Positions 38,944 to 40,128 of a stretch of 64,000 nt of DNA are shown here, one piece after another. Both the position numbers and the translations under genes were made by a program. The DNA is taken from positions 64,419 through 128,418 of the forward strand of contig CAKVHY010000003.1 of NCBI GenBank assembly GCA_934754335.1. Direction: 5' to 3'. The DNA comes from an uncultured Clostridia bacterium. GTDB taxonomy: Bacteria; Bacillota; Clostridia; Christensenellales; UBA1242. The first letter of the stretch is position 1, and each line of letters starts with the position of its first letter. Below the pieces are notes generated by a model. The model was not told the DNA's origin and searched no databases. It saw only the letters and a list, made by a program, of their open reading frames with translations.

Positions 38944-39005
38944 AAGATAATCTAGATTTTGAAGTGAACCCTATGGGGTTCACTTCATTTTAGATTATCT
39001 TTTTT
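38944..39005. terminator. long bidirectional hairpin terminator between convergent genes
   Basis: AGATAATCTAGATTTTGAAGTGAACCC pairs with GGGTTCACTTCATTTTAGATTATCT, flanked by an A-run and a T-run. Confidence 0.75.
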
Positions 39006-40128
39006 ATAACTCAAACGTAGTATTTAAATTCGAAATAACATCATATTTTATTACTTCTTTATAATTATCTGGCACTGTTAAACTATCCACAAAGAATATG
39101 GTTAGGCTTCCTTTTTCAAAATTACCGCTCATGCCGGCAATCTTCCTAATTGCTTGAACACTTTCTAGCGAAATATTGGTTGTTATCTGTTTTTGATTTA
39201 CGATATTTAAAGATCTTAGGTACTCTGAAAAATTAGAAAAGATCAAACGAACATCCTCACTAATCTCCACTCGTCTCTTAAGGTGTTCTAACATGATTGC
39301 AACGCCTCTCAACTTAACTTCTTCATCTAATGCAAAGTTCACTTCTAAAGTGTTAGATAAATCTTTAGTGGCTTCACTAGTTGAATTATAGTTTATAGCA
39401 AATGTTAAACCGGTTTTGCTGGCCTCCTCAAATAATGCTTCAGAAATCTCTTTAACCTTTTGTCTTTTATCGCAAGTGATATAACAACTATCTCCAATAT
39501 TATATTCTCCCAAAATATTAGATTGACCCTTTTCTGAGACTGAACACTTTACTAATTTATCAAATTCGGGACGGTTTGTCCCCACAACATAATTCAAAGA
39601 TTCTTTAACACTGATCACAACCCAAGTTTCTTTATCAGGGCTTAACTCTTCCTTGCCATAAATTATATCGCCTTCTCTTAGTTTGTCTGAAAGAATTATA
39701 TTTTTGGGTAAAAATATTTTTTCTTTATCAAAGTAGTTCCTTCTTACAACGCCTATTCCACCTTCAATATAATCCAAAACTGCATGCATTTTTCTTCCAC
39801 GTTTTTCGTCAAACGTTGGAACTCCATATTCCACGATATTTGAATTCAACGTGAAAATACCATCGTAATCATTATTCGAACTTTCTGAATAAGGAATGTG
39901 AGCATTCTTATGCATATCTATTGGAGGTCTACCAACTCTATTTACATTAAATTCCGGTGATTGTCTTTTATCGGCTATTGCTAAAATATTATCAATCAGA
40001 TCGCTTTTTTTCTTATTTGATGGCGACCTAACCCCAACATCTCTTGCCACTGCTCTTAGTTCGTGAACCGACATGAAGATCAATTCTTCTCTTATATACT
40101 TCTTGTAACCGCTATAAGGTGTGTACAA
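39004..40128 (-). CDS. Rho-like protein (Rho_N plus Rho RNA-binding domain plus degenerate, C-terminally truncated RecA-type domain without a P-loop)
   Basis: By-eye alignment to E. coli Rho gives these matches. [33 protein letters not shown] corresponds to the Rho_N HeH motif. [16 protein letters not shown]...[12 protein letters not shown]...[10 protein letters not shown] corresponds to the CSD-like RNA-binding domain. [15 protein letters not shown] sits where Rho has [47 protein letters not shown] corresponds to [40 protein letters not shown]...[19 protein letters not shown] corresponds to GGSLTIIATALI...MDEVIYEEFKGTGNMELHL. The protein ends there. Confidence 0.6.
   Translation of the reverse strand: [374 protein letters not shown]

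What the first reader, a model, noticed from the sequence alone, without database searches (positions are those of the whole stretch)
39004..40128. Rho paralogue that keeps the RNA-binding N-terminus but has lost the P-loop and the C-terminal end
By-eye alignment to E. coli Rho is colinear from the Rho_N HeH motif through the CSD-like RNA-binding domain into the RecA-type domain. [29 protein letters not shown] corresponds to [28 protein letters not shown], and [12 protein letters not shown] corresponds to GGSLTIIATALI.

The catalytic positions are not conserved. The Walker A position reads CDKRQKV instead of PPKAGKT. The Walker B region reads AINYNSTSE instead of LLIDERPEE. The protein also stops about 75 residues early, right after the NMELHL-equivalent.

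This predicts an RNA-binding but ATPase-dead Rho-like protein, which I am not aware of as a described class. Its location, convergent with the giant gene and downstream of the VirB2-like genes, suggests a regulatory role such as anti-termination, RNA chaperoning or a dominant modulator of bona fide Rho.
Basis: partly seen in the sequence, partly recalled or inferred. Interest (0 to 1): 0.75.

Follow-up and report, generated by a model that had tools for sequence, protein, structure and literature searches.

The report
Catalytically dead Rho paralogue family
This gene encodes a shortened copy of the bacterial transcription terminator Rho that keeps Rho's shape but has lost every part of its ATP motor; it belongs to a large, unnamed family in uncultured gut Clostridia, and in this branch it sits tail-to-tail with a giant surface-protein gene.

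Summary
ORF 39004..40128 (−), 374 aa, is a true Rho homologue: Rho_N passes Pfam's cutoff, a family profile hits only Rho in the PDB (E 9e-12), and a confident AlphaFold model (pLDDT 85) matches Rho first (E 2e-17). The P-loop is deleted. [quoted passage not shown] The last ~74 residues, with the Arg finger, are absent.

It is not a pseudogene. At least 117 clusters (50% identity) share this short, dead form and make essentially one clade; tested pairs give dN/dS of about 0.05–0.2. No source names them and no Pfam, NCBIfam, PHROG or PADLOC model captures them.

In 10 distinct loci, in three different left-flank contexts, the gene is convergent with a homologous 2,600–3,600 aa membrane-anchored protein gene, across a bidirectional intrinsic terminator, inside a Mycoplasma-ICE-type T4SS island. 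Other subfamilies lack this context.

The giant mRNA is C≥G where neighbouring genes are G>C, which is what a Rho substrate looks like. My best inference (about 0.3) is a non-translocating nucleic-acid binder that shields this transcript from Rho. "RNA-binding retained" is only partly supported. Whether the host has a canonical rho could not be tested.

The parts
39004..40128 (-). Rho-like pseudo-ATPase gene (RhoL), 374 aa. Layout: HeH (residues ~12-52), invariant K-x-G-R-P motif (64-70), disordered linker (69-104), OB domain (109-178), degenerate RecA-like domain (206-374) that ends at the NMELHL equivalent.
38925..39003 (.). Bidirectional intrinsic terminator between the stop codons of the giant gene and RhoL. 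A 12-bp GC-containing stem inside a longer palindrome, flanked by an A-tract and a T-tract; dG -39 kcal/mol, z -8.7.
   Evidence: An equivalent hairpin is present at the junction of all 9 other loci examined.
40129..40450 (-). AT-rich upstream region of RhoL. It holds an intrinsic terminator directly after the last pilin gene (40409-40447), then promoter-like hexamers and a Shine-Dalgarno sequence. RhoL is therefore a monocistronic unit.
   Evidence: Near-consensus sigma-A promoters lie directly upstream of RhoL in other loci.
28128..38924 (+). Giant gene, 3598 aa, with an N-terminal TM/signal and a C-terminal motif SYKVTKKEPLN + TM + RRKTRFK. It is the conserved convergent partner of RhoL. 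Its mRNA has C>=G, unlike neighbouring genes.
40451..41889 (-). Three T4SS pilin-like genes (Mbov_0395 family); two are near-identical tandem copies.
42005..42994 (-). WYL-domain regulator at the head of the pilin genes. It is also present upstream of the pilins and RhoL in L001 and L002.
18165..20210 (-). VirD4-like type IV coupling protein, CD1115 family. In L004, L006, L014 and L018 it lies directly beyond the giant gene.
20351..23284 (-). Polytopic membrane protein of the MMCAP2_0566 / Mbov_0396 ICE conjugal-transfer family.

Best explanation
SHOWN: the gene encodes a Rho-derived pseudo-ATPase. It keeps Rho's HeH domain, OB domain and RecA-like core. Its phosphate-binding loop is deleted. 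The catalytic Glu, Arg valve, Walker B Asp and sensor Arg are substituted. The pore loops are not conserved, and the C-terminal ~74 residues with the Arg finger are gone. It cannot hydrolyse ATP or translocate.

It belongs to a large, essentially monophyletic family under purifying selection in uncultured gut Clostridia. It is transcribed on its own. In this branch of the family it is inherited as a pair with a giant, fast-evolving, membrane-anchored surface-protein gene of a Mycoplasma-ICE-type T4SS island. The two genes are convergent and separated by a bidirectional intrinsic terminator.

INFERRED: it works as a static nucleic-acid binder, using the HeH domain, the AT-hook-like GRP motif and the OB domain. 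It supports expression of the 8-11 kb giant transcript. The most likely route is occupying C-rich, rut-like RNA, or forming dead mixed assemblies with host Rho. Either way the compositionally atypical C>=G giant mRNA would escape Rho-dependent premature termination. That would make it a Rho-derived decoy or anti-Rho factor. It would be analogous in outcome to Psu or Rof, and to RfaH-, LoaP- or conAn-type antitermination of long horizontally acquired surface and conjugation operons.
For: Identity:
- Pfam Rho_N passes its cutoff.
- The family profile hits only Rho in the PDB, at E 9.4e-12.
- The AF2 model has pLDDT 85 and pTM 0.70.
- The top 50 Foldseek PDB hits are all Rho. The best is E 2.4e-17, and the single-chain local alignments (~290-305 columns) superpose at rmsd 3.4-4.7 A.
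- The catalytic residue map shows the losses.

A real family:
- 1,628 relatives score E<1e-3.
- 117 of about 180 sequences examined are short, lack a P-loop and lack the tail.
- 117 of 118 such forms fall in one clade free of canonical Rho.
- At least 310 further 90%-identity clusters exist in one subfamily.
- dN/dS is about 0.05-0.2.

Coupling to the giant gene:
- RhoL is convergent with a homologous giant gene in the window and in L001/L003, L002, L004/5, L006/7, L008, L014, L015, L016 and L018.
- The pair occurs with three different left flanks: WYL-pilins, ypeB and RNase R.
- RhoL (21-47% identity) and the giant protein (26-57%) diverge in step. T4CP (53-64%) and YpeB (35-76%) are more conserved.

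Rho-substrate composition: the giant mRNA has a C-G skew of +0.03 to +0.15, with 51-76% of 80-nt windows C>G, in all 6 loci tested. Most neighbouring genes score -0.1 to -0.46, including most genes on the same strand.

Independent transcription unit.

Ancestry of the N-terminus: the GRP motif is shared with clostridial canonical Rho, whose N-terminus binds RNA.
Against: - No experiment or binding data exist, and the mechanism is inference.
- In the window clade two key residues of Rho's primary RNA site are changed (F64 to V, D78 to K), and the Rho_RNA_bind score is below Pfam's cutoff.
- The most constrained parts are the HeH domain and an AT-hook-like motif, which fit dsDNA binding as well as RNA binding.
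- Loss of the C-terminal 74 residues may prevent ring formation or mixing with Rho.
- Other subfamilies sit in contexts with no giant gene (L009, L013, L020, L021, L022, L025/26), so the family's core function cannot be specific to the giant gene.
- C>=G composition could come from the giant protein's amino-acid content or from foreign origin. The T4CP gene shares it.
- Whether these genomes encode a canonical Rho is unknown.
Confidence: 0.3

Rival explanations
1. It is a DNA-binding protein. The HeH/SAP-like domain and the invariant AT-hook-like K-x-G-R-P motif bind AT-rich double-stranded DNA, and the RecA-like domain serves only as an oligomerisation scaffold. On this reading it is a nucleoid-associated or locus-specific transcriptional regulator or insulator, placed at the boundary of the T4SS island.
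For: - The HeH domain (2.73 bits/column) and the GRP linker (2.49) are the most conserved parts, above the OB domain (1.95) and the RecA-like domain (1.81).
- The N-terminus gives weak Pfam hits to Fan1_SAP and HeH/LEM.
- The genome is about 31% GC.
- The OB primary-site residues are partly degenerate in this clade.
- The gene sits at the edge of the island in every locus and has its own strong promoter.
- Members in housekeeping contexts suit a general DNA-binding role.
Against: - The GRP motif and the HeH domain are also present in canonical clostridial Rho, an RNA-binding enzyme.
- AT-hook-like motifs can also bind RNA (my own knowledge, not checked here).
- No helix-turn-helix or other known regulator domain is present.
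- This reading does not explain retention of the OB domain and the whole RecA-like fold under purifying selection.
Confidence: 0.2
2. It is an accessory component of the T4SS or conjugation machinery. One version is an ssDNA-binding ring or adaptor that hands DNA to the VirD4-like coupling protein. Another is a cytoplasmic chaperone or adaptor for the giant protein.
For: - The locus encodes a CD1115-family VirD4, Mbov_0395 pilin-like proteins and an Mbov_0396/MMCAP2_0566 TM protein.
- T4CP lies directly beyond the giant gene in L004, L006, L014 and L018.
- Rho's primary site binds ssDNA as well as RNA; PDB 1pv4 is among the structural matches.
- No relaxase was seen in the window, so an unconventional DNA-processing factor is conceivable.
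Against: - The constant neighbour is the giant gene, not T4CP, which is 19 kb away and divergent in the window.
- RhoL is not co-transcribed with any T4SS gene.
- It evolves much faster than T4CP.
- Large subfamilies occur with no T4SS genes nearby.
- It is not found on any plasmid or phage record.
Confidence: 0.15
3. It is a decaying remnant or assembly artefact of the organism's rho gene, with no function of its own.
For: All catalytic motifs are lost and the C-terminus is missing. No canonical rho is in the window.
Against: - The ORF is intact, of similar length, with the same end point, in at least 117 50%-identity clusters from independent assemblies.
- dN/dS is about 0.05-0.2.
- The predicted fold is confident.
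- Each copy has its own promoter and terminator.
- Synteny is conserved down to 21% identity.
Confidence: 0.02

Closest known systems
Transcription termination factor Rho (E. coli, PDB 1pv4/3ice; T. maritima 3l0o; NCBIfam TIGR00767/NF006886)
   Same: The domain order is the same (HeH, then OB, then RecA-type domain) and the fold is the same. Conserved structural motifs are kept: GxGxxR in the OB domain, AKRxVE, and GSLT.
   Different: The P-loop is deleted. E211, R212, D265 and R269 are substituted. The Q- and R-loops are not conserved. The C-terminal ~74 residues with R366 are absent. It scores 43 bits against a 315 cutoff. It cannot be a motor.
   Same: Both have an insertion between the HeH and OB domains that carries a G-R-P (AT-hook-like) motif. 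These were the canonical Rho sequences aligned here with the family, and they are its likely evolutionary source.
   Different: Those proteins keep PPKAGKT, the DERPEE segment, Walker B, the Arg finger and the full C-terminus.
'Rho-like' sequences of Moreira et al. 2024 (PMC11347177): N-terminal plus RNA-binding domains with no ATPase domain detected, in 421 species
   Same: The operational definition fits: Pfam detects Rho_N and, weakly, Rho_RNA_bind, but no ATP-synt_ab domain.
   Different: That category is a catalogue bin and is not characterised in the main text. The degenerate RecA-like domain, the common truncation point, the monophyly and the giant-gene synteny are not described in the text I could read. 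The supplement was not available.
NCBIfam NF041509 'paralog_Rho2, Rho short form'
   Same: It is a short Rho paralogue of about 360 aa.
   Different: The window protein scores 15 bits against a 628 cutoff, and only over residues 278-345. It is not a member.
Protein antagonists of Rho: phage P4 Psu (PDB 8pex) and Rof/YaeO (PDB 8w8d)
   Same: The proposed outcome is the same, namely protection of specific or foreign transcripts from Rho. This is analogy only.
   Different: Their folds are unrelated. They bind Rho itself. Nothing here shows that RhoL contacts Rho.
Operon-specific antiterminators of long surface or conjugation operons: RfaH, LoaP, and conAn of pLS20 (my own knowledge)
   Same: They share the theme of a dedicated factor that secures read-through of very long, horizontally acquired surface or conjugation genes.
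   Different: Those factors are NusG paralogues or small bipartite systems that act on RNA polymerase. RhoL derives from the terminator itself.
Non-catalytic RecA-fold ring subunits, e.g. the F1-ATPase alpha subunit (my own knowledge)
   Same: Both are paralogues of a RecA-type ring ATPase that have lost catalysis.
   Different: The alpha subunit still binds nucleotide and is an obligate partner in a heterohexamer. RhoL has no P-loop at all, and its oligomeric state is unknown.

Membership tests
Functional Rho (TIGR00767 / NF006886) | Rho_N helix-extension-helix N-terminal domain | tested here: met
   Pfam PF07498 scores E 5.4e-7, 29.9 bits against a 24.9 cutoff, at residues 19-49.
Functional Rho (TIGR00767 / NF006886) | OB/CSD-like primary RNA-binding domain with F62, F64, R66, D78 and Y80 | tested here: inconclusive
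   PF07497 scores 17 bits against a 27 cutoff. The fold is predicted with confidence and superposes on Rho. R66 is kept as R129 and Y80 as F139, but F62 is I, F64 is V and D78 is K.
Functional Rho (TIGR00767 / NF006886) | Walker A P-loop (PPKAGKT) | tested here: not met
   The loop is shortened by about 4 residues and reads CDKRQKV. No [GA]xxxxGK[ST] occurs in any of 15 copies.
Functional Rho (TIGR00767 / NF006886) | Catalytic Glu211, Arg valve R212, Walker B Asp265 and sensor R269 | tested here: not met
   The positions read S249, T250, S298 and E302.
Functional Rho (TIGR00767 / NF006886) | C-terminal segment with Arg finger R366 | tested here: not met
   The protein ends at the NMELHL equivalent. 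No residues align to E. coli 350-419.
Functional Rho (TIGR00767 / NF006886) | Q-loop and R-loop secondary RNA site (K283, T286, K326) | tested here: not met
   The Q-loop is shortened. K326 is N355. These positions are not conserved across the family.
Functional Rho (TIGR00767 / NF006886) | Curated whole-protein score cutoff | tested here: not met
   43 bits against 315, and 41 bits against 509.
NCBIfam NF041509 paralog_Rho2 (short form) | Curated score cutoff of 628 bits | tested here: not met
   15 bits, E 0.011, over a partial stretch.
'Rho-like' bin of PMC11347177 | Rho N-terminal and/or RNA-binding domain detected, with no Rho ATPase domain detected | tested here: met
   Pfam detects Rho_N and a weak Rho_RNA_bind but no ATP-synt_ab. 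The definition was read.
Short dead Rho paralogue family (defined here) | HeH, K-x-G-R-P motif, OB domain and a P-loop-less RecA-like domain ending at the NMELHL equivalent, about 340-425 aa | tested here: met
Mycoplasma-ICE-type / Gram-positive T4SS island (context) | VirD4-like coupling protein | tested here: met
   NF045973 (CD1115 family) scores 319 bits against a 250 cutoff. Pfam T4SS-DNA_transf scores E 2.8e-52.
Mycoplasma-ICE-type / Gram-positive T4SS island (context) | Pilin-like protein (Mbov_0395) and TM protein (Mbov_0396/MMCAP2_0566) | tested here: met
   46 bits against a 40 cutoff, and 142 bits against a 90 cutoff.
Mycoplasma-ICE-type / Gram-positive T4SS island (context) | VirB4-type ATPase, and a relaxase or DDE transposase | tested here: not met
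   None was found among the window ORFs of 120 aa or more that I scanned. They could lie outside the 64 kb window.

The most novel reading that the evidence does not exclude
A Rho-derived decoy. Bacteria or their conjugative islands would have duplicated the terminator Rho, stripped it of its motor, and used the dead copy to protect a compositionally foreign, C-rich, 8-11 kb giant surface-protein transcript (and perhaps the whole T4SS island) from Rho-mediated silencing. It would be the first natural dominant-negative or competitive Rho paralogue, and a new class of antitermination factor widespread in uncultured gut Clostridia.
Probability: 0.25. Interest if true: 0.85.

Novelty: new variant of a known kind. 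Interest (0 to 1): 0.66.

Why it matters
Rho is usually treated as a single, essential-type motor enzyme. Surveys classify its variants by added disordered regions, not by loss of catalysis.

A large clade under purifying selection keeps Rho's nucleic-acid-binding head and RecA scaffold but has no motor. This shows that the Rho fold has been re-used for a non-enzymatic job.

In one branch the gene is hard-wired next to giant surface-protein genes of a T4SS island in abundant but uncultured human and animal gut Clostridia (Christensenellales and relatives). This gives a concrete, testable handle on two open questions. One is how bacteria transcribe 8-11 kb single genes to the end. The other is how horizontally acquired, compositionally atypical DNA escapes Rho silencing in Gram-positives.

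It also flags a family that current annotation leaves as 'hypothetical protein'.

Tried and rejected
- Phage or defence origin: PHROGs hits only the HeH motif and PADLOC hits nothing. tblastn against 72,556 plasmids and 50,697 phages found nothing.
- Pseudogene or sequencing error: rejected on conservation and dN/dS.
- Co-transcription with the pilin genes or with ypeB: rejected. There is a terminator after the last pilin gene and after ypeB in L014, and RhoL has its own promoters.
- Rho-dependent termination at the gene junction: unnecessary, since every junction has a strong intrinsic bidirectional terminator.
- First AF2 run with 6 sequences: too poor to use (pLDDT 57). It was replaced by the 31-sequence run.
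- Metagenome scan with the 31-sequence alignment: failed because no conserved stretch was available. Repeating it with 10 sequences gave 8 loci.
- Function of the giant protein: no Pfam, NCBIfam or PDB sequence match.
- SipW-type paralogues against the PDB: nothing meaningful.
- Literature searches for a described dead Rho paralogue, for the ICE family names and for Rho_N proteins in conjugation: nothing relevant beyond PMC11347177. That paper's supplement is not held.
Looking at the canonical Rho most similar to the profile (P0158) was uninformative.
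Full report
**1. The observation**

ORF 39004..40128 on the minus strand encodes 374 aa. It starts at a TTG preceded by GGAAAGGAAGGG.

Several independent tests tie it to Rho:
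- Pfam finds Rho_N above its cutoff (E 5.4e-7, 29.9 bits against 24.9, residues 19-49). Rho_RNA_bind is sub-threshold (17 bits against 27, residues 117-167).
- NCBIfam's two Rho equivalogs match the N-terminal 180 residues at E about 1e-11, but at 41-43 bits against cutoffs of 315-509.
- phmmer against the PDB returns almost only Rho chains.
- With a six-member family profile, the PDB search returns Rho and nothing else. The best hit is T. maritima 3l0o at E 9.4e-12, with one colinear alignment from the OB domain to the end of the RecA-like domain.
- A first AlphaFold run on six sequences was poor (pLDDT 57). With 31 diverse family members the model is confident (pLDDT 85, pTM 0.70), and only residues 1-7 and the 69-104 linker are disordered.
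- Foldseek places Rho in all top 50 positions. The best is E 2.4e-17, and the single-chain local alignments (~290-305 columns) superpose at rmsd 3.4-4.7 A.

**2. What is lost**

I aligned the protein with E. coli Rho, four clostridial canonical Rho proteins and 16 family members. E. coli numbering was verified on the sequence.

| Feature in E. coli Rho | State in the window protein |
|---|---|
| P-loop PPKAGKT | Replaced by a loop about four residues shorter (CDKRQKV): K181→R222, K184→V225, T185→K226 |
| Catalytic Glu211 | S249 |
| Arg valve R212 | T250 |
| Walker B Asp265 | S298 |
| Sensor R269 | E302 |
| Q-loop | Shortened |
| R-loop K326 | N355 |
| C-terminus | Chain stops at the NMELHL equivalent, so about 74 residues including Arg finger R366 are missing |

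- R66 and Y80 are kept, as R129 and F139.
- F62 is Ile and F64 is Val.
- Asp78, which reads cytosine, is Lys in this clade, although it is Asp or Asn in many distant members.

Column conservation across 31 members is highest in the HeH domain (2.73 bits). An invariant K-x-G-R-P motif just after it comes next (2.49 bits). That motif is AT-hook-like and is shared with clostridial canonical Rho. The OB domain (1.95 bits) and the RecA-like domain (1.81 bits) are less constrained.

**3. It is a family, not an accident**

- Close homologues at 97-40% identity are full-length and lack a P-loop.
- An exhaustive profile search of 1.84 billion representatives gives 1,628 proteins at E<1e-3 and 294 at E<1e-10.
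- Of about 180 sequences examined, 117 lack Walker A, Glu211 and the C-terminal tail. 74 of them also lack the Walker B Asp. 33 are canonical Rho.
- In a rough NJ tree, 117 of 118 dead short forms fall in one clade free of canonical Rho. That clade also contains 16 intermediate forms.
- One other subfamily, with the signature NNTKNDS at the catalytic positions, has at least 310 clusters at 90% identity. The single name any source gives is 'hypothetical protein', from Candidatus Onthoplasma faecipullorum in the Christensenellales.
- dN/dS is about 0.1 for the window against L001 and about 0.2 for L001 against L003. It is about 0.05 for L020 against L023.
- No PHROG, PADLOC, plasmid or phage match exists.
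- The reference genome closest to the window is an uncultured Clostridia MAG from a Hadza gut sample.

**4. Context**

The window is chromosomal. It carries pheST with a T-box leader, addAB, mnmA and tRNA genes.

It also holds a T4SS-type island:
- a CD1115-family VirD4 coupling protein (18165-20210);
- an MMCAP2_0566/Mbov_0396-family membrane protein (20351-23284);
- three Mbov_0395-family pilin-like genes (40451-41889);
- a WYL regulator (42005-42994);
- a SipW-like signal peptidase (16096-17286);
- four paralogous secreted proteins (24158-27883);
- the 3,598-aa giant gene (28128-38924).

No VirB4 or relaxase was seen.

RhoL is its own transcription unit. A terminator follows the last pilin gene. 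A 320-nt AT-rich region precedes RhoL. A 12-bp-stem bidirectional terminator fills the 79 nt between the RhoL and giant-gene stop codons.

**5. The conserved pair**

RhoL is convergent with a colinear homologue of the giant protein in the window and in L001/L003, L002, L004/5, L006/7, L008, L014, L015, L016 and L018. The partner is 2,580-3,630 aa and ends in a shared motif: SYKVTxxEPLN, a TM helix and a basic tail. The RhoL copies in these loci are as little as 21-28% identical to the window protein.

The left flank differs between loci: WYL-pilins, spoIIR-sleB-ypeB, or RNase R. The pair has therefore stayed together through rearrangements.

Every junction has an A-tract, hairpin and T-tract terminator. 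T4CP follows the giant gene in L004, L006, L014 and L018.

RhoL and the giant protein diverge at similar fast rates. For example, L004 against L006 gives 47% and 57% identity, and L004 against L014 gives about 25-30% and 27%. T4CP (53-64%) and YpeB (35-76%) are better conserved.

The pairing is not universal:
- L021 and L022 have ypeB and RhoL followed by a convergent gene of about 270 aa and no giant gene.
- L020 has a co-directional 639-aa gene.
- L009 has a co-directional, unrelated 1,919-aa secreted protein.
- L013 has a helicase-like neighbour.
- The Onthoplasma locus is plain housekeeping.

ypeB lies directly upstream of RhoL in 12 loci. However, near-consensus sigma-A promoters lie between ypeB and RhoL, and L014 also has a terminator there. 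This is synteny, not an operon.

**6. Composition**

In all six loci tested, the giant mRNA has C≥G, with a (C−G)/(C+G) skew of +0.03 to +0.15. Between 51% and 76% of 80-nt windows have C>G.

Most other genes in the same loci, including most on the same strand as the giant gene, score −0.1 to −0.46, with 0-33% of windows C>G. Among the longer genes, only the T4CP gene approaches the giant gene.

C-rich, G-poor RNA is the classical Rho substrate, and PMC11347177 uses C>G bubbles as a proxy for it. This is consistent with the giant transcript being unusually exposed to Rho. It is not proof, because amino-acid composition or foreign origin could produce the same skew.

**7. Mechanism**

Shown: the protein cannot be a motor. 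Its nucleic-acid-binding head is the most constrained part. It is expressed on its own. In this branch it is co-inherited with the giant gene.

Inferred, at about 0.3: it is a static binder that secures full-length expression of the giant transcript. It would do so by occupying rut-like RNA or by forming dead assemblies with Rho. In effect it would be a decoy derived from the terminator itself.

Rivals:
- an AT-rich DNA binder or boundary regulator (0.2);
- a T4SS accessory or ssDNA adaptor (0.15);
- a decaying remnant (0.02 or less).

The key unknown is whether the hosts encode a canonical rho.

**8. Novelty**

The only literature touching this is the 2024 Rho survey. It bins 'Rho-like' sequences (N-terminal plus RNA-binding domains only) from 421 species and defers them to a supplement I could not read.

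I found no description of the following, and no curated model captures the family:
- a degenerate RecA-like domain;
- a common truncation point;
- a single large clade;
- the giant-gene/T4SS synteny.

I rate it a new variant of a known kind, with moderately high interest.

Noticed in passing
window 28128-38924 (+): Giant 3,598-aa gene with no Pfam, NCBIfam or PDB sequence match. It has an N-terminal TM/signal and a conserved C-terminal SYKVTKKEPLN motif followed by a TM helix and a basic tail. Homologues of 2,580-3,630 aa occur in 10 loci. Its mRNA is C>=G, unlike neighbouring genes.
   Followed up: partly
window 24158-27883 (-) and 16096-17286 (-): Four paralogous secreted proteins (198-266 aa) share an N-terminal signal of the form ...VVGIYAATxGSAS... 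A SipW-like (archaeal-type) signal peptidase I lies nearby. Together they look like a SipW/TasA-type fibre or matrix set inside the T4SS island. The signal-type reading is my own and was not tested.
   Followed up: partly
window 40955-41371 and 41485-41889 (-): Two near-identical tandem copies of an Mbov_0395-family pilin-like gene, plus a third, more divergent copy at 40451-40855. This looks like a recent tandem duplication.
   Followed up: no
window 13000-43000: The T4SS-type island has a CD1115-family VirD4, an Mbov_0396/MMCAP2_0566 membrane protein and pilin-like genes. No VirB4 ATPase, relaxase or DDE transposase was detected in the 64 kb. Either they lie elsewhere or this is a non-canonical apparatus.
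   Followed up: partly
L004, L006, L008, L011, L014, L016-L018, L020-L023 (upstream of the RhoL gene): The spore-germination gene ypeB (usually spoIIR-sleB-ypeB) lies directly upstream of RhoL in 12 distinct loci, even where the giant gene is absent. RhoL nevertheless has its own near-consensus sigma-A promoter. The reason for this second conserved synteny is unexplained.
   Followed up: partly
window residues 64-70 of the RhoL protein (DNA ~39919-39939): An invariant K-x-G-R-P (AT-hook-like) motif follows the HeH domain. It is present in all 31 aligned family members, and in G-R-P or G-A-P form in the clostridial canonical Rho proteins with an N-terminal insertion.
   Followed up: partly
proteins P0053, P0111, P0115, P0124, P0132, P0140, P0148 (relatives): Intermediate Rho-like proteins of 437-482 aa keep a C-terminal tail and have an intact but non-Rho-type P-loop, for example GEKGSGKS or GKANSGKT. 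P0053, P0115 and P0124 fall inside the dead-Rho clade in the NJ tree. They may be evolutionary intermediates or a separate active paralogue class.
   Followed up: no
window 49409-49631 (-): A T-box leader (Rfam RF00230, 94.5 bits) lies upstream of pheS-pheT. This is ordinary Firmicute regulation and confirms the chromosomal context.
   Followed up: no
window 17465-20210 (-): The T4CP gene and the 227-aa gene downstream of it also have C about equal to G, unlike most genes in the window. Part of the island, not only the giant gene, is therefore compositionally atypical.
   Followed up: no
window 62789-63991 (-): A BspA-type leucine-rich-repeat surface protein (LRR_5, E 6e-85) lies at the window edge.
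   Followed up: no
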